The notes under the pieces are model-generated. The model did not search any database. It was not told the origin of the DNA and saw only the letters and a program-made list of their open reading frames with translations. The position numbers were made by a program, and so were the translations under genes. This document shows positions 16,215-31,426 of a DNA stretch of 33,145 nt, piece by piece; position 1 is the first letter of the stretch, and every line of letters begins with the position of its first letter. Location of the stretch: the IMG/VR virus record IMGVR_UViG_2879742664_000006. One strand, written 5' to 3'. The DNA comes from a virus. Taxonomy: Duplodnaviria > Heunggongvirae > Uroviricota > Caudoviricetes.

Positions 16215-18200
16215 ATGAGTACCACAACACGAAAATTTAAAACCATTATCACCGATACGGGTGCAAAAAAATTAGCTCAGGTAGCCGCGCCAGATGGTAA
16301 GCCTGTCCGCCTGACTCATATGGCCGTGGGCGACGGTGGCGGCACGTTGCCCACACCAGACAGTAAGCAGACCCGTCTGGTGCATGAGGTGTGGCGACAT
16401 ACTGTTAATCGCGTCATCCTGGACGCAACACATCAGAACCGCATTATTGCGGAGCTGGTTATTCCTCCTGAAACGGGCGGATTCTGGATCCGGGAAATTG
16501 GTGTATTTGATGAGCACGGCGATTTAATCGCGGTGGGAAATACTGCCGAAAGTTACAAGCCAGCCGTTGCCGAAGGGTCCGGTCGTGCACAAACATTTCG
16601 CACCATTCTGACCGTATCCAGCACTGCCACCGTGGCGCTTACCGTGGACAACACCATGGTGATGGCCACAGTGGATTACGTGGATGACAAACTGAAAGAG
16701 CATGAACAGTCACGACGTCACCCGGACGCCTCGCTGACCGCAAAAGGCTTTGTTCAACTCAGTAGCGCCACTAACAGCGTGTCTGAAACGCAGGCTGCAA
16801 CGCCGAAAGCAGTAAAGGCCGCGTATGATCTTGCTAACGGTAAATATACTGCGCAGGATGCCAGCACGACGCGAAAAGGCCTTGTCCAGCTCAGTAGCGC
16901 CACCAACAGCACGTCTGAAACGCAGGCTGCAACGCCGAAAGCAGTAAAGGCCGCGTATGACCTTGCTAACGCAAAATATACCGCTCAGGACGCCACGACG
17001 GCACAAAAAGGGATAGTCCAGCTCAGTAGTGCCACCAACAGCACGTCTGAAACACTGGCCGCGACATCGAAAGCGGTTAAGGCGGTAATGGATGAAACGA
17101 ACAAGAAAGCGCCCTTAAACAGTCCTGCGCTGACCGGAACGCCAACAACGCCAGCTGCGCGACAGGGAACGAATAATACCCAAATCGCAAGCACGGCTTT
17201 CGTTATGGCTGCGATTGCCGCCCTTGTAGATTCGTCACCTGACGCACTGAATACGCTGAACGAGTTAGCGGCGGCGCTGGGAAACGCCCCGAATTTTGCG
17301 ACCACCATGACTAACGCGCTTGCGGGTAAGCAACCGAAAGATGCCACCCTGACGGCGCTGGCCGGGCTTGCTACTGCGGCAGACAGGTTTCCGTATTTTA
17401 CGGGGAATGATGTCGCCAGCCTGGCAACCCTGACAAAAGTCGGGCGGGATATTCTTGCGAAATCGACCGTTGCTGCCGTTATCGAATACCTCGGTTTACG
17501 AGAACTCGGCACAAGCGGGGAGAAAATACCGTTACTCAGTACAGCGAATACCTGGACCAATCGACAAACATTCAGCGGTGGCCTTTCTGGGGAACTGTCC
17601 GGCAATGCCGCTACTGCAACAAAGCTGAAAACAGCACGAAAAATTGCTGGAGTTGGTTTTGATGGTTCTAGCGATATTTCAATTAGTGCCAAAAATGTCA
17701 ATGCATTTGCACTCCGACAAACAGGTAATACTGTTAATGGTGATACATCCGTTGGATGGAATTGGGATAGTGGTGCATATAACGCCCTGATTGGTGGTGC
17801 ATCTGCATTAATTCTTCACTTTAATATAAATGCTGGTAGCTGTCCTGCCGTACAATTCCGTGTGAATTATAAAAATGGTGGCATTTCCTACAGGTCGGCT
17901 CGTGATGGTTATGGGGTTGAATTAGGTTGGTCAGATTTCTATACCACGACACGAAAACCTTCAGCGGGAGATGTTGGTGCATATACGCGGGCAGAATGTA
18001 ACTCAAGGTTTATTACAGGTATTCGCCTTGGCGGTCTGTCATCTGTTCAGACATGGAATGGTCCCGGCTGGTCTGACAGGTCAGGTTATGTCGTTACGGG
18101 TTCAGTTAACGGAAACCGTGATGAATTAATTGATACAACACAGGCAAGGCCAATTCAGTATTGCATTAATGGGACGTGGTATAACGCGGGGAGTATTTAA
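16215..18200 (+). CDS. H: Tail fibre protein (P2 gpH-like), current fusion of constant N-terminal part with variable C-terminal segment Sv
   Basis: 661 aa; three tandem 44-aa collar repeats (KGxVQLSSATNSxSETQAATPKAVKAAYDLANxKYTAQDA); conserved crossover motif ...IEYLGLRE... at the gix-like site; followed by an assembly chaperone gene. Confidence 0.9.
   Translation: MSTTTRKFKTIITDTGAKKLAQVAAPDGKPVRLTHMAVGDGGGTLPTPDSKQTRLVHEVWRHTVNRVILDATHQNRIIAELVIPPETGGFWIREIGVFDEHGDLIAVGNTAESYKPAVAEGSGRAQTFRTILTVSSTATVALTVDNTMVMATVDYVDDKLKEHEQSRRHPDASLTAKGFVQLSSATNSVSETQAATPKAVKAAYDLANGKYTAQDASTTRKGLVQLSSATNSTSETQAATPKAVKAAYDLANAKYTAQDATTAQKGIVQLSSATNSTSETLAATSKAVKAVMDETNKKAPLNSPALTGTPTTPAARQGTNNTQIASTAFVMAAIAALVDSSPDALNTLNELAAALGNAPNFATTMTNALAGKQPKDATLTALAGLATAADRFPYFTGNDVASLATLTKVGRDILAKSTVAAVIEYLGLRELGTSGEKIPLLSTANTWTNRQTFSGGLSGELSGNAATATKLKTARKIAGVGFDGSSDISISAKNVNAFALRQTGNTVNGDTSVGWNWDSGAYNALIGGASALILHFNINAGSCPAVQFRVNYKNGGISYRSARDGYGVELGWSDFYTTTRKPSAGDVGAYTRAECNSRFITGIRLGGLSSVQTWNGPGWSDRSGYVVTGSVNGNRDELIDTTQARPIQYCINGTWYNAGSI
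16743..17100. repeat. Tandem 132-bp repeats (about 2.7 copies) inside the tail fibre gene
   Basis: Near-identical DNA units beginning aaaggc(t/c)ttgt(t/c)ca(a/g)ctcagtagcgcc at 16743 and 16875, partial third from 17007. Confidence 0.7.
17479..17504. other. Left gix/cix-like crossover site of the invertible fibre segment (inside H)
   Basis: ttatcgaatacctcggtttacgagaa is the imperfect inverted complement of the site at 20158-20183 (shared core cctcggtttac); lies at the EYLGL codons. Confidence 0.7.
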
Positions 18201-18202
18201 CG

Positions 18203-18736
18203 ATGATGCACTTAAAAAACATTACTGCTGGCAACCCTAAAACAAAAGAGCAATACCAGCTAACAAAGCAATTTAACATCAAATGGCTTTATTCAGATGA
18301 TGGGAAAAACTGGTATGAGGAACAAAAGAATTTCCAGCCAGACACTTTGAAAATGGTCTATTACCATAACGGCGTTATTATTTGTATTGAAAAGGATGTT
18401 TCAGCAATTAATCCGGAAGGCGCAAGCGTCGTTGAATTACCTGATATTACAGCAAATCGCCGGGCTGATATTTCGGGGAAATGGTTGTTCAAAGATGGCG
18501 TAGTGATAAAGCGAACTTATACCGAGGAAGAGCAGAGGCAACAAGCGGAAAATGAAAAGCAAAGCCTGTTGCAACTTGTCAGGGATAAAACCCAGCTATG
18601 GGACTCACAGCTACGGCTGGGCATCATTTCCGACGAGAATAAACAAAAATTAACCGAGTGGATGCTCTATGCGCAGAAAGTCGAATCTACAGACACCTCC
18701 AGCCTGCCAGTAACGTTTCCCGAACAACCAGAATGA
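18203..18736 (+). CDS. Tail fibre assembly chaperone (Tfa; P2 gpG / Mu U-like)
   Basis: 177-aa [40 protein letters not shown]...; directly after the fibre gene; paralogous to the minus-strand copy at 18765-19293. Confidence 0.85.
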   Translation: MMHLKNITAGNPKTKEQYQLTKQFNIKWLYSDDGKNWYEEQKNFQPDTLKMVYYHNGVIICIEKDVSAINPEGASVVELPDITANRRADISGKWLFKDGVVIKRTYTEEEQRQQAENEKQSLLQLVRDKTQLWDSQLRLGIISDENKQKLTEWMLYAQKVESTDTSSLPVTFPEQPE

Positions 18737-18739
18737 GAG

Positions 18740-18766
18740 AAGGCCCGATATTGGGCCTTAATTTTT
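18740..18766. terminator. Bidirectional terminator hairpin between the two convergent chaperone genes
   Basis: aaggccc-gatatt-gggcctt perfect hairpin followed by aattttt. Confidence 0.5.
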
Positions 18767-19293
18767 ACTCAGGCTTTTGTGGCCATTCGGGATTTGCTGT
18801 ATCCACACGGCTGACCAGAACGCTGTAGCGTTCCCATGACTCCAGTCGTGTGCGTTCCTCATCCATCGCCATATTCAGCCTGACAGCGCGTTCCAGTGGC
18901 TGAATAACGCTTTCAGCTTCAGAAAGCAACGCGACCTTTTGTGATTCGGCCTGTTGTTGCTGTTCGTCTGCTGTATAAATCCGCTTAACCACAGTTCCGT
19001 CCTTAAACATCCACTTCCCTGAATCATCGGCACGACGATTGGCTGTTATATCTGGAATCTCAACGACACTAAAGCCTTCGGGATTAAGCGTTGGGGCATC
19101 TTTGGTTATGGCAACAATAATATTATTTTCGTCGTATACAATCTTTATGGTGTCGTCCTGAAAGTTATTTACTTCCTCATACCAGTTTTTACCGTCTTCG
19201 GACCATAACCAGATAACATCAAAATTCTTTGTTAGCTGATATTGTTCTTTTGTTTTTGGATTTCCGGACTTAATATTTTTTAATATGCTGCAT
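18765..19293 (-). pseudogene. Alternate tail fibre assembly chaperone (Tfa', Mu U'-like), frameshifted at codons 5-6 as sequenced
   Basis: ATG at 19293 gives MQHIKKY* then stop; the body ([37 protein letters not shown]...) is in the +1 frame; removing one A from the A6 run (plus-strand T6 at 19276-19281) gives [17 protein letters not shown]..., colinear with Tfa. Confidence 0.7.
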
Positions 19294-19296
19294 AAT

Positions 19297-20157
19297 TTAC
19301 ACCTGTGCGACGTTATACCATGTGCCATTGATGTATTTTTGTATTGGTCTGAAGATGGCTTCATCATCGCCATCTACTTCACCAATGATTCTTAATCCGG
19401 TAATTGCGTGTCCGGCTTTTTCATAACGACCACCACGCGCCATCAATTGAACAACACGCGTACCCAGGCGAACATCTTTTACATAGCGTGAATCAAAATT
19501 CCCCCAGTTGCTGGGCTGTATCTGACCGTTAACAGAAAATATTACCGAGTTATCTGTATTTCGCTGGCTATAGAAATGCCATCCTGCCTCATTGCCTAAC
19601 TCTGCAACTACTGGACGGGTTGAAGCACCCCATAAATTAAACGTTGCATTCTTTGTGGAGTTGTTGGAGCTGGATAGCGTGAATTTTTTACCATCCCCGG
19701 CCTGAATATTTTTAAAAGCAATAGCCACTCCATTCTGAAAGCGGAATACACGCTGACTATTAGCATAAACATCCAGAATACCGTCTCCATTCTGTTTAAA
19801 TCCGGTGTCATTATCACCAAGAACAATAGAGCTACCACCTAACGCATTCGTCGAACCAACTCCAAGACTGCCATTAATGACAGCATTAACAAGAATATTT
19901 AGTGCATCCCATTTCAGCGTCATCAGGTCTTTTGTTGTGGTGCTCTGGCGGCTTCTCCATTTGAAATATTCATTGCCGTTGTCGCCTGTTTCAAACCACA
20001 TGTATGAATCAGTGTCACCATCGGCATCATTTTTAAATCCAATCTTCGCCCAGTCAGTATTTCGAATCCAGGCAAGGATTGAGTCATTTTCAAAAGTAAG
20101 CCCACCGGACAAGGTATCGCCATTTTTTTGCACGGCGTTACCAGCCCTGTTTACCGT
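19297..20157 (-). CDS. Alternate tail fibre C-terminal segment (Sv'), no start of its own; expressed only after inversion
   Basis: Minus-strand frame open from the right gix site (...[23 protein letters not shown]...) to a stop at 19297; C-terminus ...[17 protein letters not shown] parallels the current H C-terminus ...RPIQYCINGTWYNAGSI. Confidence 0.75.
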
Positions 20158-20183
20158 TTCCTGTAAACCGAGGTTTTAAATAA
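20158..20183. other. Right gix/cix-like crossover site of the invertible segment
   Basis: ttcctgtaaaccgaggttttaaataa closely resembles the Mu gix consensus as I remember it; inverted relative to 17479-17504; 54 bp upstream of the invertase gene. Confidence 0.75.
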
Positions 20184-20237
20184 TGGCCGTTTCTGGCCTG
20201 CATGGCATGATTTGCGCTTTTGGACGGGAGATTCAGT

Positions 20238-20837
20238 GTGCTGATTGGCTATGTAAGGGTATCAACAAATGACCAGAATACAGACCTGCAACGAAACGCT
20301 CTTGTTTGTGCAGGATGTGAACAAATATTTGAAGATAAATTAAGCGGGACAAAGACAGACCGACCGGGATTAAAACGCGCTTTAAAGCGCCTTCAAAAAG
20401 GTGACACGCTGGTTGTCTGGAAACTGGATCGCCTCGGGCGAAGCATGAAACATCTGATTTCTCTCGTCGGGGAACTACGGGAGCGAGGGATTAATTTTCG
20501 CAGTCTGACCGACAGCATAGACACATCTTCTCCAATGGGGCGTTTTTTCTTCCACGTGATGGGTGCCCTGGCTGAAATGGAACGTGAATTAATTGTTGAA
20601 CGTACACTGGCCGGGCTGGCGGCAGCGCGCGCAAGGGGGCGCACAGGCGGACGTCGACCGAAGCTGACAAAAGAACAGCATGAGCAAATAGCAAGGCTAA
20701 TCAAAAACGGGCACGACAGAAAACAACTGGCAATAATTTACGGCATTGGCACATCGACGATTTATCGTTATCACCCTGTAGGCGATATACAGACTGAAGA
20801 AACAACCGGGCAGACTCAGGAAAATGAAAACCGCTAA
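20238..20837 (+). CDS. Serine DNA invertase of the Pin/Gin/Cin/Hin family
   Basis: MLIGYVRVSTNDQNTDLQRNALVCAGCEQIFEDKLSGTKTDRPGLKRALKRL... (catalytic Ser in VRVSTNDQ), C-terminal HTH; GTG start inferred at 20238 inside track ORF 20220..20837. Confidence 0.9.
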   Translation: MLIGYVRVSTNDQNTDLQRNALVCAGCEQIFEDKLSGTKTDRPGLKRALKRLQKGDTLVVWKLDRLGRSMKHLISLVGELRERGINFRSLTDSIDTSSPMGRFFFHVMGALAEMERELIVERTLAGLAAARARGRTGGRRPKLTKEQHEQIARLIKNGHDRKQLAIIYGIGTSTIYRYHPVGDIQTEETTGQTQENENR

Positions 20838-20865: not shown

Positions 20866-21360
20866 TCAGAACAGCCCTTTAACTGAACTGGCCGCGCTGT
20901 TAAGAGATGATGTCACCTTATCTTTGAAGCCGGACAGCATATCACTGAACGATGAGGATTGCAGGCGCTCCCGCAAATCCTCATCACAGCGTTCAAGAGT
21001 CAGTGAAAATTCTATCTTTTTCGCCTTACCGTAGCGATCAAACTCGGAGCGGGTCGTATTCGTTTCAGTCAGGACATACATGCCGTAAATCTGCCCGACG
21101 CCATCAATCAAAGGCCAGGGTCGTCCTGTATACGCCTGCGTAGTCAGCAGCGACAGCGACACTTCGCCACCTGTAATTTCAGGATAAAGCACACCAGAAA
21201 GAACGATGCGATCATCACCTGCACCGATATACTGCCAGCTTGCTGAACGGTTAACGCGTTCATTTTTCACATGCCGCCAGCTTTTGTTTTGCTGTAACTG
21301 CTGATGCGGCAGCGTGCGCAGCTCAAAAACAAACATGCCGTAGATCATCATCATGGCCAT
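20866..21360 (-). CDS. U: P2 gpU-like tail protein
   Basis: 164-aa MAMMMIYGMFVFELRTLPHQQLQQNKSWRH...; immediately downstream of the tape measure gene on the minus strand. Confidence 0.85.
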   Translation of the reverse strand: MAMMMIYGMFVFELRTLPHQQLQQNKSWRHVKNERVNRSASWQYIGAGDDRIVLSGVLYPEITGGEVSLSLLTTQAYTGRPWPLIDGVGQIYGMYVLTETNTTRSEFDRYGKAKKIEFSLTLERCDEDLRERLQSSSFSDMLSGFKDKVTSSLNSAASSVKGLF

Positions 21361-21366
21361 GACTCC

Positions 21367-24174
21367 TCAATCTTTATCGTAAAAACAGCCACGCCCGGCA
21401 CGGGCGCGCCGTTCCATTTCTGCCCTGACCATTTCACCGACCAGTTTCGCCAGTTCGCGGGGATTCTGCGTAACAACGTTATGCAGATGAACATGAATTT
21501 CACCACCAAATCCGAAGGCAACAGGCTCCCGGTTACGGGAAGTTACAGGAACTGATGCCACTGGAGATCGTATAGCCTCCGCCACCGGGCGGGAGCTGGC
21601 CGCAACAACAGGGACCAGCGCCGGAGGCAGCGGAGCCGGAACCACGGGTGTGATATTAATTGCGGGGGCAGGCTTACTGACCTGCGCAATCTTCCGCTCC
21701 TGCCACTCCCCACGAACAGCAAGTGCTCGGGGCAGGTTTTTAAAGACAATATCGCCGGGGCCAATGCGTTTTTTCGTCTCCTCAACCAGCTTACCTGTGT
21801 TATCAGCAATTTTGCTGAGTCTGCGCAGCGTACCGGTATTGCTGTCTGTGAGCGGTTTATTGTCTTTGGGGTTATCACCTCCGGTGCCATTGCCATTTTC
21901 CACAGGCTTCGGCGGATTGATTTTCGCCAGATCCCCCTGAAGCAAGGCAACCTTGTCCTGAAGAATGGCCGCACGCTGTGCGTCTTCGATTTTCTTGCGC
22001 GCCCTTTCCGCTTCATCCGGAAGCACACCAAGCTTTTCAAGTATCCACGCCAGCGTATCCAGCAACATTTTTGCAGGTGTCAGAACAAGTTGTAACGCAC
22101 CGCCAAGAACGTTACCGAATATCTCGCCAGCACTGGTACATTTATCCAGAGTTTCCTTGCTGGACTCCATCGGTGACAGCAGCGATTTAAACCAGTTAAA
22201 CACCTGGCTGATCCCACTCCCGATTGCGTCAAAAACAGGACCAAACCGTTCAAAGGTTTCGCGCAACGGGGTCAGCCTTTCCATAATCCCGCTGAACACC
22301 CCGGCAAAAAATGCCCTGATGGGATCCCAGTATTTCCAGATAAGAACGGCAGCTCCGGCAAGCGCAGCCACGATAAGACCAACCGGACTGAACAACGCCC
22401 CGATAGCGCCTCCCAGTAAAGAAACGGAACCCGTCACCATTCCCCATAGTGCTGGCAGAACCCTGACAGCATTCATTGATCCGGTCAGGAGGGAAAAACC
22501 AAGACGCAGTTTTGCCAGCGGGCCAGCAAGCACACCAATAGCCAGCGACAACGAGCCAACCGTTGCAGTCATTGCCAGCAATGCACCGCCTGCAATCAGT
22601 AGCTGGCGCGTCAGTGCGGGATGGGCCTGCGCCAGCGCCGTCACCTTTGATACCACACGCGTGAGCCACTGCGTGACAGAACGCAGCGGACCGTCAATCA
22701 GATCTGCAATGCGGATGCGCAACCCTTCCCATGCACTGCTGAGTGATTTCAGATCGCCGTCAAGGTTGTTGGCCATAACCTTTGCCGTGCGTTCAGCCTC
22801 ACCGCGCGCGCCTTCAAGTTCTTTTCTCAGTTTGGGTAAGGAGCCGTCACCTGCCGCATCAACGAGGGCCATAAATGATGTGAAAGCCTCTTCTCCGGCA
22901 ATGTCCTTAAAGAACGATACCCGGTCAACTTCCCCGTATTTGCGGGTAGCTTTATAAAGGTCAGCCAGCACATCCTCCATCGGGCGCATTTTGCCCCCGG
23001 CATCCGAGACAGACACGCCAAGCTCTTTCAGCGCCTCTGCTGCCGCCTTTGGCGGTGATGCCAGACGAGCCAGGCTGGCACGCATTGCCGTACCAGCATC
23101 ACTCCCCCTGATACCCATATTCGCCAGCACGCCCGCCATCGCTGCGGCCTGCTCCAGAGATATTCCCAGCTTACCCGCCACCGGACCTGCATATTTCATG
23201 GTTTCACCCAGTGCGCGAAGGTCAGTGTTGGTACGGGTAAACGCTGCGGTGAGTGTGTCGCCGACCCGGTCCATCTGGTCAGCAGAAAGACCGAACTGCG
23301 TCAGAATATTTGAGCCAATATCCGCCGTCTCACCGAGGTCCATACCGCCAGCCGTTGCCATGCTCAGTACGCCAGGGAGCGCAGCCTGAATGGCCTGTGG
23401 TGTAAAGCCAGCCATTGCAAGAAATGCCTGTCCACTGGCGGCATCGCCTGCGGTGAACTGCGTTTCAGAGCCAAGTTTTAACGCCTGCTCACGCAGCGCC
23501 TTAAACTGCGGGCTGTTCTGGTCGATTCGCGTCAGTGCCTGAACGCGGGACATCTCTTTGCCGAACCCGATCGCAGGCTGCAAAAAACGCCCGGCAGCAT
23601 AGCCGCCCGCCGCTGCCGCACCAATTGCCAGCGCACCACCTGTTTTCAGTTTTCCCGCTGTTTCCTGCGCGCGCGAATACCGCTCACGCGCCCGTGTTAC
23701 ACGCGCAAGCGCCTGCCGTTCGCGTTCAAGCTGGTTGTTGTACTGTTCGGTGCGTCTGATGGCCTGCTGGATGGTGTTATCGCTGCCTGTCAGGGAAATG
23801 CCGTGGCGTTTCAGCTCTCCGCCAAGCTCCCGCATTTTCTGAATTTCCCGTGTGCGCGATTCATTCAGGCGTTCAAGCCGGGTGCTTAACTGCTGCATCA
23901 GCTTTTGTTGTTTTTCGCTGAGCACTGTACCCGTGCGTTGTAACTGATTAAGGGCGTTAAGCTGGCGTCGTGCTTTCACGATGCCAGCATCCGCTTTACT
24001 GACAGCGTCACGGGCGCGCTCAAATGATCGCGCCTGACGCTCGAGATTTTTGATCGCCCCCTGCGTTCGCTGGATGGAGTCACCAAACTGCCCCATCAGG
24101 CGGCGGGCGTTTTCGGCAGGCCGGGTCAGCCTGTCAACGGCGCTGAAAGCGACCCGGATATCAAGAGTCTTCAT
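21367..24174 (-). CDS. T: Tail tape measure protein (P2 gpT-like)
   Basis: ~935-aa ORF, coiled-coil N-terminal third, Gly/Ala-rich hydrophobic middle; start placed at the Met of MKTLDIRV (RBS ggga); track ORF extends to 24210. Confidence 0.9.
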   Translation of the reverse strand: MKTLDIRVAFSAVDRLTRPAENARRLMGQFGDSIQRTQGAIKNLERQARSFERARDAVSKADAGIVKARRQLNALNQLQRTGTVLSEKQQKLMQQLSTRLERLNESRTREIQKMRELGGELKRHGISLTGSDNTIQQAIRRTEQYNNQLERERQALARVTRARERYSRAQETAGKLKTGGALAIGAAAAGGYAAGRFLQPAIGFGKEMSRVQALTRIDQNSPQFKALREQALKLGSETQFTAGDAASGQAFLAMAGFTPQAIQAALPGVLSMATAGGMDLGETADIGSNILTQFGLSADQMDRVGDTLTAAFTRTNTDLRALGETMKYAGPVAGKLGISLEQAAAMAGVLANMGIRGSDAGTAMRASLARLASPPKAAAEALKELGVSVSDAGGKMRPMEDVLADLYKATRKYGEVDRVSFFKDIAGEEAFTSFMALVDAAGDGSLPKLRKELEGARGEAERTAKVMANNLDGDLKSLSSAWEGLRIRIADLIDGPLRSVTQWLTRVVSKVTALAQAHPALTRQLLIAGGALLAMTATVGSLSLAIGVLAGPLAKLRLGFSLLTGSMNAVRVLPALWGMVTGSVSLLGGAIGALFSPVGLIVAALAGAAVLIWKYWDPIRAFFAGVFSGIMERLTPLRETFERFGPVFDAIGSGISQVFNWFKSLLSPMESSKETLDKCTSAGEIFGNVLGGALQLVLTPAKMLLDTLAWILEKLGVLPDEAERARKKIEDAQRAAILQDKVALLQGDLAKINPPKPVENGNGTGGDNPKDNKPLTDSNTGTLRRLSKIADNTGKLVEETKKRIGPGDIVFKNLPRALAVRGEWQERKIAQVSKPAPAINITPVVPAPLPPALVPVVAASSRPVAEAIRSPVASVPVTSRNREPVAFGFGGEIHVHLHNVVTQNPRELAKLVGEMVRAEMERRARAGRGCFYDKD

Positions 24175-24211
24175 TGTCTGCATTCCCGCTACGAAGTGCC
24201 GCCCGCTCACG

Positions 24212-24699
24212 TCAGCTAACCACTTCGCCGGGCGTCATCATGAAGATTTCGGCGGGCGACCAGTTAAAAATGGCGGCAATATCCGCCACCAGATCTTCGA
24301 TGTGCTCAAAGCACACCAGGGTGATTACGCTGCCGTCTCCTGCACGCTCTTCGCGCCAGAGTCTGGCTCGCTCATAAAATTTACAGCCACAGCGCACAAC
24401 TGAATAAAATCGCGTGACGACATTTTTTTAATCATCACTTCATCCAGTCGTGGCGAGGTCACGCGAGGCAACAGCGTGAACATGGTATCCGCTTTCAGAT
24501 TCAGCACATCAGACAGCGACAGACCACGCAGGGATCCAGCCTGCTCAATAGCCCCGGTGATCTCCACATACGTGATTTTTTCGCCACCACGCTCAATTGG
24601 TCGGGTCAGTTTTACGCCACGTTCGACAGCCATATCCTCAACTGCCGTCACATTATCCGCCACGGTGTTATTCCGGGTTTCAGTATCGATGTCTTTCAT
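24212..24699 (-). CDS. gpE+E'-like frameshift product (programmed -1 frameshift, putative)
   Basis: A -1 frame (...KFYERARLWREERAGDGSVITL...PGEVVS*) is open from a slippery-like heptamer A_AAT_TTT (plus-strand 24375-24381) in E through to a stop at 24212, 2 nt before the T start, the conserved chaperone arrangement. Confidence 0.55.
24325..24699 (-). CDS. E: Tail assembly chaperone gpE-like
   Basis: 124-aa ORF with strong RBS aaggaga 7 nt before ATG 24699; lies between tail tube and tape measure genes. Confidence 0.75.
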   Translation of the reverse strand: MKDIDTETRNNTVADNVTAVEDMAVERGVKLTRPIERGGEKITYVEITGAIEQAGSLRGLSLSDVLNLKADTMFTLLPRVTSPRLDEVMIKKMSSRDFIQLCAVAVNFMSEPDSGAKSVQETAA

Positions 24700-24754: not shown

Positions 24755-25265
24755 TCAGCCAAGCCCAAGCGCGGAACGGATGCGATCGGGCACAATGTCC
24801 TTGCCGTCCTTCCGGTAAATGAAGTTCAGCAGGTCAATCTCCCACAACGGGCGATCGTTAACACTCAGCTTGTAGTAGGTGTTTTAATGGCGTAAGTGTG
24901 TGATGTGGCTTCGCCCTGTTTGGCTTCCCCCATATCAATTTCCGTCACACGTCCGCGCATTTCGACTTCATACAGGTCGCTTTCTGCATCGGTGTAGTAT
25001 TCACCCGCAAAACGCAGCAGCGTGCCGTCAATCGTGCCGCCATACTTAAGGAACAGCTCACGAACTGCGCCCCCATGACAAAGCTCGCATCAAGCGCGGA
25101 GTCGTCCAGACCGAGATCAATACTTACCGCACCCATCATGCCACCACCCCGGTAGCTGTCGGTTTTGCGCGTCAGCTTAGGCAGAGTGACGGACGTCACA
25201 TTACCCACTTCGTTTTCACCATCCACAAACAGCGTAAAAAAGCGAAGATGTTTTGGCACAGCCAT
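24755..25265 (-). pseudogene. FII: P2 gpFII-like tail tube protein with two 1-bp frameshifts as sequenced
   Basis: N-terminal part in track ORF 24945..25265 (MAVPKHLRFFTLFVDGENEVGNVTSVTLPKLTRKTDSYRGGG...); tube-like sequence continues in two other frames (...GGAVRELFLKYGGTIDGTLLRFAGEYY..., then ...YYKLSVNDRPLWEIDLLNFIYRKDGKDIVPDRIRSALGLG*). Frame changes at a C5 run (25070-25074) and a T4 run (24883-24886). Confidence 0.8.
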
Positions 25266-26449
25266 CAGGCACCTCCCAGCACCGCAAATGCGGGTTCAAA
25301 GTATTCATCAGTAAACGTCTGGTAAAGCTCCATGTCTTCCAGTGGCGGAACGGGCGTATATTTGTAGCGAATACGCACACGTCCCTGACGTAAATCCGTG
25401 GTGCTGTTATCCACCACGTCATACCAGCACTCCGCGCCAATCAGTTTCCCGGCAGTCACCAGTGAATCCAGTTTTGCCCTGATGGCACTGATAACATCCT
25501 TCACATTCGCAGGCGTCAGTGGACTGTCGATGGTTTCAAACTGCGCTTCCGCAATTGAATCAGCCAGCACCTGTGCGGTTCGGGTATACACCTCAAAGAT
25601 GTAGGCGTTCGTTTCCGGTGTGCGGTTACCCCAGAAGCGGAACCCGTTGCGACGAATAATGGTCGTGATTTCTTTGTTGTTGAGGCTGTTGGCATCGCTG
25701 TCTTCGGCCTGCAACGACCAGAACACATGCCTCGACATCCCCAGCACATTTTTAACCGGAACGTTGGACAGCGATTTGTGCCATCCCTGTTCATGGTCAA
25801 TGTACGCACGAAGGCCGCACGCATAGGCAGGCGCGGGGAACGTTTCGTTTTTGCCATTTTTCGGGTTGTAGGCGATGAAGTCCGGCCATAAGAGCATCAC
25901 CTCACGTTCGTTGAATTTCTGGCGGTAGGTAATTGCCTCGGCCATCGTGTTACAGCCATGACATGAGGCATACACAAACGCGCGCAGTTTATCTGCAATC
26001 ACGCACAGGGATTTTGTTACCGCCTCCGTGTCCAGCTCCGGCGCGGCCAGAATACGCGGACGGTATCCGATGCTTTCATCCTGCTCTGCAACAAGCAGCG
26101 CATACATCCCCGTATAGCTGCCGTCATCCTCAGAACCACCGATAACCAGTTGATCCTGCGTCTTTCCGTCTTCTTCTTTGTGTTCAGCCACGCGAACGAC
26201 GATCACCTTTGTGCTCACCTGGTCTGCGATGGCCTTAAGCGCACGATAAAGCGTCCCCGTTGTCCCGCATTTTCCCAGCACGTCATTGACGCGGGTCAGC
26301 AGTGTGGGCTTGTTCAGCGGGAACAGCTTCGCGTCCGCATCATCCGCCGTTGCCACGATACCGATAACGCTGGAATCAACATCGTTAATCGCTGTTACCA
26401 GGTCGGTATTCTCCGTAACACGGGCACCATGAAAACGAGTTTCACTCAT
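25265..26449 (-). CDS. FI: P2 gpFI-like tail sheath protein
   Basis: 394-aa intact ORF; stop overlaps the tail tube start. Confidence 0.9.
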   Translation of the reverse strand: MSETRFHGARVTENTDLVTAINDVDSSVIGIVATADDADAKLFPLNKPTLLTRVNDVLGKCGTTGTLYRALKAIADQVSTKVIVVRVAEHKEEDGKTQDQLVIGGSEDDGSYTGMYALLVAEQDESIGYRPRILAAPELDTEAVTKSLCVIADKLRAFVYASCHGCNTMAEAITYRQKFNEREVMLLWPDFIAYNPKNGKNETFPAPAYACGLRAYIDHEQGWHKSLSNVPVKNVLGMSRHVFWSLQAEDSDANSLNNKEITTIIRRNGFRFWGNRTPETNAYIFEVYTRTAQVLADSIAEAQFETIDSPLTPANVKDVISAIRAKLDSLVTAGKLIGAECWYDVVDNSTTDLRQGRVRIRYKYTPVPPLEDMELYQTFTDEYFEPAFAVLGGA

Positions 26450-26606: not shown

Positions 26607-27716
26607 ATGACCGACACCACCATGCAATTGCTCAGTCAGGGCACGGCCCCCGTGAAAATGCCGGATTTTGATATTCTCTCGGAGGGTAAAACGCTGTCAG
26701 GCGTGGCGGAGCGCCTGATGAGCCTGTAACTGACCGACAACCGGGGATTTGAGGCGGACCAGCTCACCATCACGCTGGATGATGCGGATGGTCAGTTGCA
26801 GCTACCGCCACGGGGCGCGCGTCTGACGGTTCTCATTGGCTGGAAAGGGGAACCGCTGACAGAAAAAGGCACTTACATTGTTGATGAAATCGCTCACGAA
26901 GGACCGCCGGACAGGCTGACTGTTTCAGCCAGAAGCGCAGATTTTCGGGATGAATTTAACGTTAAACGTGAGGTGTCCTGGCATGATGTGACCGTTGAGC
27001 GTGTGGTATCCGCCATCACTCATCGGTACGGTCTGAAACCGCAAATCAGCGAAATGCTGATGGATATCGAAATCGACCACGCCGACCAGACCGAAGAAAG
27101 CGACATGTCCTTTCTTACGCGCATGGCGGAAATGCTGGGAGCAATCGCCACGGTAAAAAGCGGCAATCTGTTATTCATCATGCCAGGTGGTGGCGTGAAC
27201 GCACAGGGGCAGCCGTTGCCCTCGTTCGCCATTACACGCAGCAGCGGCGATCGCCATCAGTTCCGCATTGCTGACCGCGAGGCGTATACGGGGGTACGCG
27301 CCTACTGGCTTGATCTTAATTACGGGAAAAAGAAAAAAGTCAGCGTGAAACGCCGCAAACCGCCAAAACCCAAAAAGGAGAAAAGCAGCAGTCGGGAAGG
27401 CGACTATATGGAAGGTGCGGAAGGCAACGTGTTTGTGTTACGCAAGACTTATCAGAACGAGCAGGCAGCAAGACGCGCAGCGGCGGCAAAGTGGCAGCAG
27501 CTACAACGCGGAGCCGCATCATTCTCCATCACGCTGGCGCGTGGTCGTGCAGAACTCTATCCCGAAATGCATGGCACAGTGACAGGCTTTAAAAGCGAGA
27601 TTGATTATCAGGACTGGACTATTGCAAAAGCCGAGCACACCATTGATAACAGCGGCTTTACCACGCAGCTTGAACTTGAAGCAAAAATCCCGGAATGGAT
27701 AGCAGAAACAGAATAA
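26607..27716 (+). pseudogene. D: P2 gpD-like tail protein with an in-frame TAA stop at codon 41 (26727-26729)
   Basis: ATG 26607 with RBS agggaggg; track ORFs 26475..26729 and 26796..27716 are in the same frame, separated only by TAA; D-like sequence reads continuously across it (...GVAERLMSL*LTDNRGFEADQLTITLDDADGQLQLPPRGARLTVLIGWKGEPL...). Confidence 0.8.
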
Positions 27717-27964
27717 ATCTCTTAAAAATATTATTTTTGAGATGTGCTTCTACACTGACAGTAAGAACAAAAGATAATGTATCAGCCCACTAGATGTCAG
27801 AGGTTGGGGCATCAACCAGATGCTAACAATAATACGGATGTTTTTCCCACATGACAGAGGAAGTCAAGTATAATCTTCACAGTCCATCCCGTCCAAGGGA
27901 ATATGACTCAATAGTAAAAGTTCCAGTTTAGTTAGTAGACCCACACTTTATAGAAGAGTAATTC

Positions 27965-30900
27965 ATGATTGGACAATTTTTAAGTGCAACAGAGATTTTA
28001 GCAAAGAACTATGTTCGTAATAAAATGGTTAAAAATCCATTTTATTCGAATTTAAAATGGAATTTTATTGAAAAAAACATCATAAGATTAACATCCTCAC
28101 CGGTTAAATCAGTACTTTGCATATCAGCTTTTTCATTTGTACTACTTTATGTTGGATATTTAAACGAATTATTTATAAAAAATAATCTTTTACATTATTT
28201 CCCGTTTAGGCATTCATTAACCGAATGGCAAACAACCATTTTAAGTGGCCAATTGACAATTATTGGTATTGTATACCCCCTTGTTATAGGTTTAGTAAGT
28301 GTCTTATTCCAAAAAAAGGCAGATAGAAAAATAGCCCAAACTGCTTATCAGCGTTACTCAGGATTCATGCTTGCTGGACTCAGCGGGCTTTTCTTATCAG
28401 GATTTATACTTCTCAGTGTACTAATTAAAACTGTCTTTGGAAGTTATCTTTATGGTATAGCTTGTCTAATCAGCATATTATGGCTTTTGATAAACATAGT
28501 TCTTTCTATTTGGTTCTTTATCGTGAGTCTTGAAATTCTTGATGATGTAAAACGGCAAATAATTATAAAGCGATACATTGCCTTCGAAATAGTAATGCCC
28601 CATATTTGTAACAAAATATCAGCCAAGCTTAGGTTATACCCTATCTATCAAAAACATAACTATTCAAATTTAGAAATCACGCAAGCCGATTACAAAGGAG
28701 AATACATATCTGTGGCTAGCAGTTATTCTAAGGAAGATGAGTTAAGTTTATATCACCGTCCTTTTCAACTTACTCTTAATCTTATTAATTACCAACTAAA
28801 AAAGAAGAATCATTTTGCGTCATTTGTCATTGGTGATAATCGTACAAAAGAAACAGAATCCACGGGTAAGATACTTTTTAGCGTTAAAAATATCAAACCA
28901 GACAGCTTATTAATAAAAATACTTAAGCAATGTTTTTATAGGGCTCCGATTAAAGGAGGAGATTTTTCCGTAAGTCTTACAATGCAGGCTATAACAGCAG
29001 ATACGTATATGTATCTGCGGGATTCTGATCTCATTAGTTTTGACAATGCTATCTCTGCATTAATTAATAACTTTAATAATCTCTGCGATTTGTATTTTTT
29101 TCAAGATGATAATACCAACAATAACTTCTTACTGATCACTACAGAATTATTTGAACGGAGTTTTCAATATGAGTTTTCAGATGAAGTTTATAAAATATCA
29201 AATAATTCCATGGATAAAATTAATCTTTCTGAAAGATTTTTTGAATTATGTCTTTGGAGCGGAGTGCGTATTATCAATAATAGAAAACATCTTATCAGCA
29301 ATGAACTTTGTATCTATATGGGAATTACTCGTTCACAATGGTCAATATTAACAGAATGGTTCCGAAACAACCAATCACTCTTAAATGCCTCGCTTCGTTC
29401 ACGTTATAATCGTATATTAAGAACCTATATCACTGTTTGGGAGCAATATCAAGAAAGCATAAACTTTCGTTTCTGCAATACAGAGAATTCAGATTTATTT
29501 GAATTATTTTGCAAAACGCAACTACAAGAACTTCCATCGATGATTATTGATGCAACACAGACTCGCGATCCTTCTACTATTGATACAGCCGTCGATCTTA
29601 TTAACCGATGGCAGCACTCAATGAATATTGACAGCCATTCGGTAGAAAAATACAGTTACAAAGGCCAGCTTTTTAACCCGGGTTTTTTCATATCCAAAAA
29701 ACTAAACTTCAATTCAGACAGAGAGTGGTTCAATATTGCCATCATAAATGCGTTGACTGACATGCGTATATGCACATGTCTTTATCTGACATCAAGAATC
29801 AATACTTCTGACAAACTAATGACACATTACATTAAACTTATTTTAGAGGGTAAACTTATTGACCAAACCGGTGGATATGAAACTCCCACTGAAGAAATTG
29901 ATAATGCAAGCCAACTAATCAAGATATTAATTAGAATCTGCCTGTGGACATGGTCTGAAAATATGGAGCACAATGGGTGGATGAATAGTTTAGCAAGGCG
30001 TTTACGTGACTATGATAAAACAGACATGGTGATGGGCAGAGTTTACAGTAATGTTTTTGACTGTGGATTTATTGATATGGAACAATCATGGGTTCAGCTA
30101 TTATTAATTTTTTCTAACAAGAACGATAGCGTATCAAAAGAAATAAAAGAAGCAATAGAAAACAACTATATAACATATCGTGAGAAGCAACGACTCATTG
30201 GAGTATTATCAAAAATTTGTAACTCCATCGAATACACTAAAATCAAGCTGACTTTAACATTGGACGATCTCCAAACAAAAAAAGAAAACTTAAGAAAGTT
30301 GCTTCAAGAGCATATTAACATGCTAAAGAAAGATCTTGATATGAGACTTCAGGATGCTGCCATAGATGTACATCGACTAGATAGCACTGCACGTAAAACA
30401 TCAGAACATCTTCGTAAACGCATCAAGAAAACGCTCCCTCTTTCACTTTTCAAATCTATTGATTTTAAGCAGGCTAGCGATTGTTTCACAAAACATAAGA
30501 TATCTATTAAGATAGATAAAGAACCGTATGCCGAAGGAATAGAATCCATCCCTTATATCAATGAAGGTGATATTCAAGCAGACTTAATTCTCAAGGACAT
30601 CCAGAGAATAATACTTTCAAATTTATTTAGCACTGGCTGTTCGCAACATACCGTAATAGAAGATTTCAATATGTTGATTGATCACATAAAATCATCTGCT
30701 GACTTGGCTGGCAAACTGGTTCTTGTGATGAGTAAAGAGATCTTTCAGCAATATAATCGTATGCTTTTCGATAATCCCAACCTCAGAGAACTAATGAGAA
30801 AAAATGATGATGGCTCTATGAACATAACTACTGAATCCGGTACCCGTAAGGTTTACTTCTTACCATTTGTTAATCAACCATTTTCTCTTGTGGTAAAGGA

Positions 30901-31084
30901 TAACTACTTCACTAAATTAATTATTAGAGAATATGATAATAATAAGTTAGTAAATGTCACTTCAGAGAATATCAAAAGTGACTCAGATAAATTCAAGCTA
31001 ACTCTTAACTATGAGTTGAATATAGTATTTGAAGGAAACGCTGATTTAAAAATAGCTCACTCGCAAAGAGTGACATCAGAATAA
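27965..31084 (+). CDS. Large membrane-anchored protein of unknown function (1039 aa), AT-rich cargo gene
   Basis: Single uninterrupted ORF, visibly AT-rich (about 17 G+C in the first 60 nt) against GC-rich phage genes; N-terminal hydrophobic helices (residues ~50-190), then ~850 aa with no recognisable motif; possible -10 box TATAAT at 27869-27874. Confidence 0.8.
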   Translation: MIGQFLSATEILAKNYVRNKMVKNPFYSNLKWNFIEKNIIRLTSSPVKSVLCISAFSFVLLYVGYLNELFIKNNLLHYFPFRHSLTEWQTTILSGQLTIIGIVYPLVIGLVSVLFQKKADRKIAQTAYQRYSGFMLAGLSGLFLSGFILLSVLIKTVFGSYLYGIACLISILWLLINIVLSIWFFIVSLEILDDVKRQIIIKRYIAFEIVMPHICNKISAKLRLYPIYQKHNYSNLEITQADYKGEYISVASSYSKEDELSLYHRPFQLTLNLINYQLKKKNHFASFVIGDNRTKETESTGKILFSVKNIKPDSLLIKILKQCFYRAPIKGGDFSVSLTMQAITADTYMYLRDSDLISFDNAISALINNFNNLCDLYFFQDDNTNNNFLLITTELFERSFQYEFSDEVYKISNNSMDKINLSERFFELCLWSGVRIINNRKHLISNELCIYMGITRSQWSILTEWFRNNQSLLNASLRSRYNRILRTYITVWEQYQESINFRFCNTENSDLFELFCKTQLQELPSMIIDATQTRDPSTIDTAVDLINRWQHSMNIDSHSVEKYSYKGQLFNPGFFISKKLNFNSDREWFNIAIINALTDMRICTCLYLTSRINTSDKLMTHYIKLILEGKLIDQTGGYETPTEEIDNASQLIKILIRICLWTWSENMEHNGWMNSLARRLRDYDKTDMVMGRVYSNVFDCGFIDMEQSWVQLLLIFSNKNDSVSKEIKEAIENNYITYREKQRLIGVLSKICNSIEYTKIKLTLTLDDLQTKKENLRKLLQEHINMLKKDLDMRLQDAAIDVHRLDSTARKTSEHLRKRIKKTLPLSLFKSIDFKQASDCFTKHKISIKIDKEPYAEGIESIPYINEGDIQADLILKDIQRIILSNLFSTGCSQHTVIEDFNMLIDHIKSSADLAGKLVLVMSKEIFQQYNRMLFDNPNLRELMRKNDDGSMNITTESGTRKVYFLPFVNQPFSLVVKDNYFTKLIIREYDNNKLVNVTSENIKSDSDKFKLTLNYELNIVFEGNADLKIAHSQRVTSE

Positions 31085-31219
31085 TATCTTTGACGGCGCT
31101 CCTTAGAGTGCCGTTCGTTTATTAACTAATGCTAAAAATCATTATATAGAGAAAGTCATGTTTAAATCTTAGAGAATACAACCTAGAATAGTGTAAGCAC
31201 TACAATAAGAGAGGTCGCT

Positions 31220-31415: not shown

Positions 31416-31426
31416 TGGATTTGCCC

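What the first reader, a model, noticed from the sequence alone, without database searches (positions are those of the whole stretch)
24375..24381. Candidate programmed -1 frameshift site for the tail chaperone pair E/E'
On the coding (minus) strand the heptamer A_AAT_TTT lies in the E frame, and the -1 frame is open from this point to a stop two nucleotides before the tape measure start. This reproduces the conserved long-tailed-phage chaperone arrangement, but the heptamer differs from the T6G motif I recall for P2.
Basis: partly seen in the sequence, partly recalled or inferred. Interest (0 to 1): 0.4.

Follow-up and report, generated by a model that had tools for sequence, protein, structure and literature searches.

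The report
Tail chaperone E/E' frameshift site, decayed prophage
This is the well-known ribosomal -1 frameshift site that P2-like phages use to make two tail-assembly chaperones from one gene, here with a variant slippery sequence (A_AAT_TTT instead of T_TTT_TTG), and it sits in a dead Shigella/E. coli prophage, so it is an ordinary feature with a small twist.

Summary
The heptamer exists, but at 24376-24382 (minus strand), one base off the stated coordinates. It is in the X_XXY_YYZ register of gene E (GTA AAT TTT ATG). The window is a P88-like (Xuanwuvirus, Peduoviridae) prophage with the order sheath, tube, E, E', tape measure, U.

Protein alignment places the window's F108-M109 on the invariant Phe-Leu (TTT TTG) of P2's mapped T_TTT_TTG site. 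In this lineage TTG became ATG, which destroys T6G, while the overlapping heptamer one codon upstream remains. P88 itself carries both (A_AAT_TTT_TTG). Klebsiella Reipivirus-like phages lost T6G independently and keep C_CCT_TTC in the same upstream register.

Inside the ATG-type lineage, 17 of 22 polymorphisms in the E'-only segment fall on third codon positions, so E' is still translated. Plaque-forming phage phiSM carries the same site. In published E. coli reporter data A_AAU_UUU shifts at least as well as U_UUU_UUG once a stimulator is present.

This particular copy is a relic. E' carries a nonsense change (TGG to TGA, 24212-24214) that removes half of the GpE domain. Tube, D, capsid and portal are also broken, and the lesions are inherited in Shigella assemblies. 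Verdict: new member of a known kind; low interest.

The parts
24325..24699 (-). Gene E (tail assembly chaperone, 124 aa, stop included). ATG at 24699 preceded by AAGGAG.
   Evidence: ORF. PHROG 103 'tail protein' E=7.9e-37. Pfam Phage_TAC_7 below threshold, 20.7 bits against a cutoff of 25. tblastn to P2 E: 34.8% identity, E=3e-7. RBS.
24376..24382 (-). Slippery heptamer A_AAT_TTT in the E zero frame (P-site codon AAT Asn107, A-site codon TTT Phe108). Proposed -1 slip site.
   Evidence: GTA AAT TTT is invariant in 120 of 120 IMG/VR loci retrieved with a pattern that allowed synonymous variants. P(GTA AAT TTT | V-N-F) = 0.03 under this phage's codon usage.
24373..24379 (-). Position homologous to P2's T_TTT_TTG. 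It reads T_TTT_ATG here, so the T6G motif is destroyed by TTG to ATG (Leu to Met109).
   Evidence: In the protein alignment F108 is invariant and L109 nearly invariant. P2 site. P88 has AAT TTT TTG.
24215..24376 (-). E' coding part read in the -1 frame after the slip (54 codons, YERARLW...GEVVS). It contains the first half of the GpE domain.
   Evidence: Pfam Phage_P2_GpE 21 bits (cutoff 23), profile positions 1-19 of 37. With Trp restored and the ORF read to 24161 the score is 45.1 bits over positions 1-36 of 37. PHROG 1756 E=2e-31.
24212..24214 (-). Premature TGA in E', replacing the conserved Trp codon TGG (the W of P2 'ITWREKA').
   Evidence: alignment. 81 TGG against 1 TGA in IMG/VR loci, the one being the same sequence as the window. 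No exact match among 1354 matching E. coli genomes. Shared by three Shigella-lineage assemblies, absent from a fourth.
24161..24211 (-). Ancestral C-terminal remainder of E' (RERAALRSGNADNEDS plus TGA), now downstream of the nonsense codon. It overlaps the tape measure start.
21367..24174 (-). Tape measure gene T (935 aa from ATG 24174). An in-frame ATG at 24183 and a GTG at 24210 lie upstream.
   Evidence: Pfam PhageMin_Tail E=3.6e-58. Start as annotated in relatives. Start region.
24423..24429 (-). A7 run (zero frame ATT AAA AAA ATG) directly after the TAA that opens the -1 frame. Rival slip or transcriptional-slippage site.
   Evidence: In P88, 500465-2 and L172 a TGA closes the -1 frame between this run and AAATTTT.
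24332..24367 (-). Predicted imperfect hairpin starting 8 nt after the heptamer. Possible stimulator, not supported.
   Evidence: -16.7 to -18.9 kcal/mol, z = -1.6 to -1.9. 5 of 15 pairs are broken in P88. No informative variation in close relatives. Absent from ATG-type locus L172.
24755..25265 (-). Tail tube gene (FII homolog), inactivated by two single-base deletions (G6 to G5 at 25070-25074, A5 to A4 at 24882-24885). It lies directly upstream of E.
   Evidence: The resulting 106-aa product is indexed in 1068 assembly blocks.

Best explanation
The locus is the E/E+E' tail-assembly-chaperone recoding cassette of a P88-like (Xuanwuvirus, Peduoviridae) prophage, homologous to P2 E/E' and analogous to lambda G/GT. 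In the lineage, most ribosomes translate E (124 aa) and stop at TAA 24327-24325. A minority slip back one nucleotide on A_AAU_UUU (24382-24376). In the proposed slip, tRNA-Asn in the P site moves from AAU to AAA and tRNA-Phe in the A site moves from UUU to UUU, a fully cognate re-pairing. Those ribosomes continue with UAU in the -1 frame and give E(1-108) fused to the GpE domain (junction ...AVAVNF|YERARLW...). The ancestral fusion is 179 aa and ends over the tape measure start. The family's usual heptamer U_UUU_UUG sat one codon downstream and was lost here by TTG to ATG. The overlapping upstream heptamer, already present in the ancestral A_AAU_UUU_UUG, carries the function. In this window the cassette is a relic. 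A TGG to TGA change truncates E' to 54 residues (fusion 162 aa) and removes half of the GpE domain, and the tube, D, capsid and portal genes are also broken. Shown: homology, register, conservation, selection on the E' frame, and the lesions. Inferred: the slip itself, which tRNAs move, and its efficiency.
For: Identity and context. The best matches are Xuanwuvirus phages at 98-99.9% and P88 at 85%. Gene order is sheath-tube-E-E'-T-U. E is homologous to P2 E and the -1 ORF to GpE.

Site homology. F108 is invariant and L109 nearly invariant across 13 Peduoviridae E proteins. P2's annotated frameshift site GGT TTT TTG aligns with the window's AAT TTT ATG.

Family survey. 39 of 42 species-representative Enterobacterales genomes have T_TTT_TTR there, as do 78 of 80 P2-type IMG/VR loci. 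Leu is always TTG or TTA, although these codons make up 6% each of Leu codons in this phage.

A parallel case. 57 Klebsiella Reipivirus-like loci plus 2 species genomes have CCT TTC TTG: T6G is lost and C_CCT_TTC is retained in the same upstream register.

Conservation of the heptamer. All 120 loci found with a synonymous-tolerant pattern have GTA AAT TTT, 62 followed by ATG and 58 by TTG.

Exclusion of sites further upstream. In P88-type sequences and in ATG-type locus L172 the -1 frame is closed by a TGA upstream of the heptamer.

E' is still expressed after the loss of T6G. Within the ATG-type lineage the E'-only segment has 22 variants, 17 at third codon positions and 15 synonymous (P = 3e-5 and 8e-6). 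Phage phiSM carries AAATTTTATG and TGG and forms plaques on E. coli K-12 (PMC6456863). P2's record marks E+E' as essential.

Heptamer competence in E. coli (Sharma et al. 2014, Table S3; % -1 frameshifting with no stimulator / IS911 stimulators / IS3 pseudoknot): AAAUUUU 0.070 / 0.355 / 11.4; UUUUUUG 0.118 / 0.247 / 0.765. H_HHU_UUY is listed among the best E. coli motifs.

Relic status..
Against: There are no protein or reporter data for any Xuanwuvirus, and no database record annotates a frameshift here.

Without a stimulator A_AAU_UUU gave only 0.07% in the reporter, close to the 0.055% background. I found no convincing stimulator. The downstream hairpin is not significant (z about -1.6 to -1.9), is not conserved in P88 and is absent from L172. 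There is no Shine-Dalgarno-like sequence upstream of the kind seen in P2 and 186.

The heptamer is expected by chance in about 11% of synonymous re-codings. Its invariance among relatives that are 85-100% identical is only mild evidence.

A P-site-only slip of tRNA-Phe on U_UUU gives the same protein and cannot be separated from the tandem slip by sequence.

In this copy nothing functional can be demonstrated, because E' is truncated.
Confidence: 0.78

Rival explanations
1. The site and product are the same but the mechanics differ. Only the P-site tRNA-Phe slips, on the tetramer U_UUU (24379-24376), while the A site over AUG is empty. The upstream AAA plays no role.
For: U_UUU is the third most shift-prone tetramer in E. 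coli: 0.80% with a pseudoknot against about 0.07% for the mutated control. T_TTT is the one element shared by every variant at this position: T_TTT_TTG, T_TTT_TTA, T_TTT_ATG.
Against: The Klebsiella variant CCT TTC TTG breaks T_TTT as a P-site motif for the next codon yet keeps a full heptamer C_CCT_TTC. That argues that two-tRNA heptamers are what is being preserved. GTA and AAT are invariant at their synonymous positions in 120 of 120 loci. In Sharma et al. the best tetramer reached about 10-fold less than the best heptamer with the same stimulator.
Confidence: 0.13
2. The shift happens upstream at the A7 run (24429-24423). Either tRNA-Lys slips on A_AAA, or RNA polymerase inserts one A. The resulting E' fusion lacks the last 17 residues of the E body.
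For: The -1 frame opens exactly at this run: TAA 24430-24428 immediately precedes it. AAAAAAA is intrinsically slippery, at 0.4-25% in reporters in the X_XXZ_ZZN phasing, and is prone to transcriptional slippage. The run is conserved in the window type and in P88.
Against: Its register here is T_AAA_AAA, not A_AAA_AAA. In P88, 500465-2 and ATG-type L172 a TGA closes the -1 frame between the run and the GpE region. E homology to P2 continues to residues 108-110, so all relatives keep this segment in E+E'. Fifteen stop-free codons occur by chance about half the time, (61/64)^15.
Confidence: 0.04
3. There is no recoding. E' is a separate small gene initiated at an internal GTG (24316 as in PGAP and RefSeq annotations, or 24397), and the heptamer is a coincidence.
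For: Every database record annotates a stand-alone 51-aa 'GpE family phage tail protein' or 'tail protein'. The heptamer alone is not statistically unusual.
Against: No Shine-Dalgarno sequence precedes either GTG (sequence). In P2 the homologous product is annotated as an E+E' fusion made by a -1 frameshift (PMC3091744). The conserved TTT-TTR codon choice at this spot across the family is unexplained without slippage. Amino-acid conservation of the -1 frame between window type and P88 type starts at the heptamer (KF[YF]ER...) rather than at the GTG.
Confidence: 0.03

Closest known systems
Bacteriophage P2 E / E+E' programmed -1 frameshift (Christie et al. 2002, as summarised in PMC3091744; NC_001895 annotation)
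   Same: It occupies the same gene slot, between tube FII and tape measure T. E is homologous (34.8% identity) and E' carries the GpE domain. The shift is in the -1 direction. The slip position aligns on the invariant Phe codon. E' ends overlapping the T start in intact relatives. No conserved downstream structure is found.
   Different: The heptamer is A_AAT_TTT, one codon upstream of P2's T_TTT_TTG, which here reads T_TTT_ATG. The E tail after the slip is 16 codons against 7 in P2. There is no AAGGTG Shine-Dalgarno-like element upstream. E' is truncated by a nonsense codon in this copy.
Escherichia phage P88 / Gemsvirus 500465-2 (closest sequenced relatives with the ancestral site)
   Same: About 85% nucleotide identity, identical gene order, and the same GTA AAT TTT codons.
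   Different: They keep TTG, so they carry the nonamer A_AAT_TTT_TTG with both heptamers, and their -1 frame is closed by a TGA just upstream. The frameshift is not annotated in them either.
Klebsiella Reipivirus-like phages (ST16-OXA48phi5.4, Kp48xx series)
   Same: An independent loss of T6G with retention of a canonical heptamer in the same upstream register: GTC CCT TTC TTG gives C_CCT_TTC.
   Different: The change is in the Phe codon (TTT to TTC) rather than the Leu codon. X is C rather than A. E is about 45% identical to the window's.
Phage lambda G/GT tail assembly chaperone frameshift (Levin et al. 1993; Xu et al. 2004, 2013, via review PMC5009743)
   Same: The logic is the same: two products at a fixed ratio (about 30:1 in lambda) from overlapping ORFs between the major tail and tape measure genes, made by -1 slippage on an X_XXY_YYZ heptamer. 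Neither product is found in the virion.
   Different: I found no sequence homology. Lambda uses G_GGA_AAG, as does Mannheimia phage 587AP1 among the Peduoviridae. Lambda has a non-contractile tail; this phage has a contractile one.

Membership tests
P2-type E/E+E' tail chaperone frameshift cassette (Peduoviridae) | Located between the tail tube (FII) and tape measure (T) genes, on the same strand | tested here: met
   Tube 25265..24755, E 24699..24325, T 24174..21367, U 21360..20866, all on the minus strand. Same order in P884B11, phiSM, P88 and P2.
P2-type E/E+E' tail chaperone frameshift cassette (Peduoviridae) | Upstream ORF homologous to gpE (Pfam Phage_TAC_7) | tested here: met
   tblastn to P2-group E: 34.8% identity over residues 26-114, E=3e-7. 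PHROG 103 E=7.9e-37. The Pfam PF10109 hit is below the curated cutoff, 20.7 against 25 bits.
P2-type E/E+E' tail chaperone frameshift cassette (Peduoviridae) | The -1 frame extension encodes a complete GpE domain (Pfam PF06528) | tested here: not met
   The window product scores 21 bits (cutoff 23) and covers profile positions 1-19 of 37 because of TGA 24214-24212. With TGG restored the score is 45.1 bits over positions 1-36 of 37. The feature is met in the lineage but not in this copy.
P2-type E/E+E' tail chaperone frameshift cassette (Peduoviridae) | Slippery sequence T_TTT_TTG in the E frame | tested here: not met
   The homologous position reads T_TTT_ATG. A canonical A_AAT_TTT lies one codon upstream.
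P2-type E/E+E' tail chaperone frameshift cassette (Peduoviridae) | E' reading frame ends at or overlapping the tape measure start codon | tested here: not met
   The window stops at 24214-24212, 38 nt before ATG 24174. Relatives end at 24163-24161, overlapping that ATG.
P2-type E/E+E' tail chaperone frameshift cassette (Peduoviridae) | A fusion protein E+E' is actually produced by ribosomal slippage and is needed for tail assembly | not testable with these tools
   The support is indirect only: purifying selection on the E' frame within the ATG-type lineage, and plaque-forming phiSM carrying the same site.
General tailed-phage tail assembly chaperone -1 PRF (lambda G/GT type, Xu et al. 2004) | Two overlapping ORFs upstream of the tape measure gene, joined by a canonical X_XXY_YYZ heptamer in the zero frame inside the region where the -1 frame is open | tested here: met
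   A_AAT_TTT at 24382-24376. The -1 frame is open from 24427 to 24215. It is the only full heptamer in the overlap (overlap codons also read by eye from that call).
General tailed-phage tail assembly chaperone -1 PRF (lambda G/GT type, Xu et al. 2004) | The heptamer is shift-competent in the host's translation system | tested here: met
   From published E. coli reporter values, not an assay of this sequence. AAAUUUU gives 0.07 / 0.36 / 11.4% (no stimulator / IS911 / IS3 pseudoknot) and belongs to the H_HHU_UUY class of best motifs (PMC4066793).

The most novel reading that the evidence does not exclude
The slippery site of the Peduoviridae E/E' cassette can hop by one codon. Ancestors carried an overlapping nonamer X_XXT_TTT_TTG with two usable heptamers. 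At least two lineages then lost P2's T6G and rely on the upstream heptamer alone: A_AAT_TTT in the E. coli/Shigella/Citrobacter Xuanwuvirus type, where the exact 61-nt site is found in 526 records and the segment matches in 599 of 5426 complete E. coli genomes, and C_CCT_TTC in the Klebsiella Reipivirus type. By E. coli frameshifting rules the upstream heptamers are the better ones. This raises the possibility that in P88-, Novemvirus- and Senquatrovirus-like phages, and perhaps more widely, T6G is not the main working site.
Probability: 0.55. Interest if true: 0.3.

Novelty: new member of a known kind. Interest (0 to 1): 0.2.

Why it matters
Practically, the E/E' fusion is unannotated in every Xuanwuvirus, Gemsvirus and Reipivirus record and in RefSeq E. 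coli genomes. There the -1 part is called as a free-standing 51-aa "GpE family" gene. Knowing the slip site allows a correct joined CDS for a prophage family present in roughly a tenth to a quarter of complete E. coli genomes. Conceptually, it is a small natural experiment on slippery-site turnover. T6G, conserved from Burkholderia to Escherichia, is dispensable when an overlapping canonical heptamer is present. For this window specifically, the site is a fossil inside a decaying Shigella-lineage prophage and has no current function.

Tried and rejected
1. Downstream stimulatory structure. I folded 46-, 80- and 191-nt windows and 50 nt downstream of the site in 13 family members. The window has an imperfect hairpin 8 nt downstream, but z is only -1.6 to -1.9. 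It is broken in P88, absent from ATG-type L172, and 83 close relatives give no covariation. Rejected as evidence. The idea that the hairpin arose to compensate for the loss of T6G is also weakened by L172.

2. Upstream Shine-Dalgarno-like stimulator. It is present as AAGGTG/GAGGTG in P2, 186, ENT4 and RSA1 (Lys/Glu-Val codons), but absent from the window, P88 and the Klebsiella types.

3. Sequencing error as the cause of the lesions. I first suspected this because both tube indels lie in homopolymers. I rejected it because the truncated 106-aa tube product is indexed in 1068 assembly blocks and the TGA recurs in three assemblies.

4. A rearrangement as the reason why D lies on the opposite strand from the sheath-to-U block. 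Rejected: this is the normal Xuanwuvirus order.

5. The Christie et al. 2002 P2 paper could not be read. P2 facts are taken from the NC_001895 annotation and from PMC3091744.

6. The first genome-collection scan, with a 13-sequence alignment, failed for lack of a conserved stretch and was repeated with 7 sequences.

7. My first heptamer scan had a frame bug. The heptamer lists in that call are unreliable; the printed sequences were used instead. The scan was corrected.

8. The first polymorphism count was contaminated by a few haplotypes with indels. It was redone with haplotypes within 8 mismatches of the reference.

Full report
OBSERVATION. On the minus strand the sequence reads ...GCT GTA AAT TTT ATG AGC... 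in the frame of a 124-codon ORF (24699..24325). The heptamer A_AAT_TTT occupies 24382..24376. The coordinates in the finding (24375-24381) read AATTTTA and are one base off. The heptamer is in the canonical X_XXY_YYZ register. The -1 frame is open from just after a TAA at 24430-24428 to a TGA at 24214-24212. As a bare motif it is unremarkable. AAATTTT occurs 8 times in the window against 9.3 expected. If the E protein is kept and its last 36 codons are redrawn from this phage's codon usage, a canonical heptamer appears 11% of the time.

CONTEXT. The window is a P88-like prophage (genus Xuanwuvirus, Peduoviridae). The region is 98-99.9% identical to Escherichia phages 520873, 503458 and P884B11 and to Citrobacter phage phiSM, and 85% identical to P88. 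The minus strand carries sheath (26449..25265), tube (25265..24755), E, the -1 ORF, tape measure (24174..21367, PhageMin_Tail E=3.6e-58) and gpU. That this block lies opposite gene D is normal for the genus. E matches PHROG 103 (E=7.9e-37) and P2 gpE (34.8% identity, E=3e-7). The -1 ORF matches PHROG 1756 and Pfam Phage_P2_GpE. No record annotates a frameshift: the -1 part is called as a separate 51-aa gene from an internal GTG.

THE SITE IS THE FAMILY'S CONSERVED SLIP POSITION. P2's record marks its -1 frameshift at GGT TTT TTG, and PMC3091744 summarises that P2 shifts at TTTTTTG. In an alignment of 13 Peduoviridae E proteins the Phe is invariant and the following Leu nearly so. The window's F108-M109 aligns with them. 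At the DNA level, the following all have NNT TTT TTG: P2, 186, ENT4, Kp4885-2, RSA1, KS14, Kp4845-2, SEN4, phiT5282H, Kp4876-2, Shewanella M16-3, P88 and 500465-2. The same site is found in 39 of 42 species-representative Enterobacterales genomes (T_TTT_TTG or TTA) and in 78 of 80 P2-type IMG/VR loci. Leu is never CTN there, although TTG and TTA are each only 6% of Leu codons in this phage.

The window lineage has TTT ATG, so T6G is gone. The codons before it are GTA AAT, which give A_AAT_TTT one codon upstream. P88 carries the nonamer A_AAT_TTT_TTG, that is, both heptamers. The conserved site overlaps the flagged heptamer by four bases.

IS THE UPSTREAM HEPTAMER USED? Five lines of evidence bear on this.

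(a) A degenerate pattern that allowed every synonymous codon for Val, Asn and Phe retrieved 120 IMG/VR loci. All have GTA AAT TTT, 62 followed by ATG and 58 by TTG, while neighbouring synonymous positions vary. P(GTA AAT TTT | V-N-F) is 0.03.

(b) In P88-type sequences a TGA closes the -1 frame between the upstream A7 run and the heptamer. Locus L172 has this P88-type background but ATG, so AAATTTT (or its TTTT core) is the only possible entry point there.

(c) Klebsiella Reipivirus-like phages lost T6G independently (CCT TTC TTG) and retain C_CCT_TTC in the same upstream register. This was seen in 57 IMG/VR loci and 2 species genomes. Their sisters have C_CCT_TTT_TTG.

(d) E' is still under purifying selection inside the ATG-type lineage. 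In the 150-nt segment that codes only for E', 23 haplotypes from 137 loci show 22 variants. Of these, 17 are at third positions of the -1 frame and 15 are synonymous (P = 3e-5 and 8e-6). No Shine-Dalgarno sequence precedes the internal GTGs, so translation must enter from E. PhiSM has exactly this site with an intact E' and forms plaques on K-12 strains (PMC6456863).

(e) In the systematic E. coli reporter study of Sharma et al. 2014 (Table S3), -1 frameshifting without stimulator, with IS911 stimulators and with the IS3 pseudoknot was as follows:
- AAAUUUU: 0.070 / 0.355 / 11.4%
- UUUUUUG: 0.118 / 0.247 / 0.765%
- CCCUUUC: 0.19 / 1.4 / 23%
H_HHU_UUY is listed among the best bacterial motifs, because the A-site tRNA re-pairs cognately.

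The proposed mechanism is tandem slippage of tRNA-Asn (AAU to AAA) and tRNA-Phe (UUU to UUU), with decoding continuing at UAU. This gives ...AVAVNF|YERARLW.... That step is inferred, not shown.

RIVALS. A P-site-only slip of tRNA-Phe on U_UUU gives the same protein and cannot be excluded (about 0.13). The A7 run at 24429-24423 sits exactly where the -1 frame opens. However, it is in the T_AAA_AAA register, it is cut off by a stop in P88-type and L172 sequences, and it would delete an E segment that all relatives keep. Independent initiation of E' is what the databases imply, but it lacks a ribosome-binding site and does not explain the codon conservation.

STIMULATORS. An imperfect hairpin begins 8 nt after the heptamer (24367..24332; -16.7 to -18.9 kcal/mol). 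It is not significant against shuffles (z -1.6 to -1.9), is not conserved in P88 (5 of 15 pairs broken), is absent from L172, and is uninformative among close relatives. No conserved structure exists across the family, in line with what is reported for P2. The AAGGTG element upstream of T6G in P2 and 186 is absent here. Efficiency is therefore unknown. The no-stimulator reporter value is close to background, and this is the main weakness of the explanation.

THIS COPY IS A RELIC. It is absent from 81 of 83 IMG/VR relatives, and the one carrier is the same sequence as the window. It is also absent from all 1354 complete E. coli genomes that contain this segment. It removes 17 residues and half of the GpE domain: 21 bits, below the cutoff, against 45.1 bits when restored.

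The gene just upstream, tube, has two single-base deletions. D has an in-frame TAA at 26727-26729, and capsid and portal are each split across two frames. These are real mutations, not sequencing errors. The truncated 106-aa tube product is indexed in 1068 assembly blocks. The TGA is shared by three of the retrieved assemblies (CP000036.1, CP026731.1, AMJX01000052.1) but not by CP026766.1, which already has the tube lesions. So the tube gene died first and E' decayed later. An identical copy of the neighbouring 1039-aa protein is named as from Shigella boydii. From memory, CP000036 is S. boydii Sb227.

COMPARISON AND NOVELTY. Functionally and by descent this is the P2 E/E+E' cassette, and by analogy lambda G/GT (about 30:1 ratio). 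It fails two literal P2 criteria, the T6G motif and an E' that ends over the T start. The first failure is a lineage-wide variant and the second is a private lesion. I file it as a new, unannotated member of a known kind. The modestly new point is comparative. The slippery heptamer has moved one codon upstream in two independent lineages. The A_AAT_TTT type is common: the exact 61-mer is found in 526 records, and the segment matches in 599 of 5426 complete E. coli genomes.

LIMITS. All functional statements rest on sequence comparison and on published reporter values measured in other contexts. The Christie 2002 paper could not be read. Family surveys return the best 80-120 loci per scan and are not exhaustive.

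Noticed in passing
window 24755-25265 (-): The tail tube gene is a pseudogene, with two single-base homopolymer deletions (G6 to G5 at 25070-25074, A5 to A4 at 24882-24885). The resulting 106-aa product is indexed in 1068 assembly blocks, so the lesion is inherited in a large Shigella-type lineage.
   Followed up: yes
window 26607-27716 (+), stop at 26727-26729: The gene D homolog has an in-frame TAA (TCA in P884B11) at codon 41.
   Followed up: yes
window 4999-6041 (-) and 8807-9858 (+): The portal gene is split across two frames near 5930 (indels of +6 and -10 relative to P884B11). The major capsid gene is split near 8983 (1-nt difference). The small terminase C-terminus is altered by a 10-nt insertion near 10625. 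Together with tube, E' and D, this shows a thoroughly decayed prophage.
   Followed up: partly
window 27713-31178; ORF 27965-31084 (+): A 3.4-kb insertion relative to P884B11 lies between D and ogr and carries a 1039-aa ORF with predicted N-terminal membrane segments. The ORF has no hit in Pfam, NCBIfam, PADLOC or PHROGs. An identical protein is in Shigella boydii (named 'MFS transporter'). A family of proteins about 1069 aa long and 26-29% identical is widespread in Enterobacteriaceae as 'hypothetical protein'. It is possibly phage cargo of unknown function.
   Followed up: partly
window 31427-32699 (-): An IS2-like element sits just after ogr (31220-31456). orfA is intact (136 aa) and orfB is split into 121-aa and 182-aa ORFs. 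Judged against my memory of IS2 InsD, this looks like a 1-nt indel. IS2 itself uses a programmed -1 frameshift between orfA and orfB.
   Followed up: no
window 17475-20187, invertase 20238-20837 (+): The tail-fibre segment next to a Gin/Cin-type DNA invertase is inverted relative to P884B11. This is an invertible host-range switch caught in the other orientation.
   Followed up: partly
window 24298-24318 (-): A perfect 9-bp hairpin (GGUGUGCUU UGA GCACAUC region) begins about 7 nt after the E stop codon, inside the E'-only segment. The sequence is identical in P88. It is too far (about 57 nt) from the heptamer to act as a classical stimulator, and its role, if any, is unknown.
   Followed up: no
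L087, L109, L110, L265-L321 (Klebsiella phages and prophages): Reipivirus-like phages have GTC CCT TTC TTG at the E/E' site. P2's T6G is lost and C_CCT_TTC is retained, a heptamer that gave 23% frameshifting with a pseudoknot in E. coli reporters. This too is unannotated as a frameshift.
   Followed up: partly
L118 (Symbiopectobacterium MAG, NZ_JBLLJS010000023.1): E and E' are fused in one frame there: the zero frame reads through into ...PPSELFSMDLGEVIAWRER.... This is either a T-run length change or an assembly error at the slippery run.
   Followed up: no
L425, L429, L431, L432: In other assemblies of the same dead prophage an IS1 element is inserted between the tube gene and E. This is further decay of the same operon.
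   Followed up: no
L172 and L253 (IMG/VR): Two loci combine a P88-type flanking sequence with the ATG variant of the slip site. The TTG/ATG polymorphism has therefore either arisen twice or moved by a very short recombination tract.
   Followed up: partly
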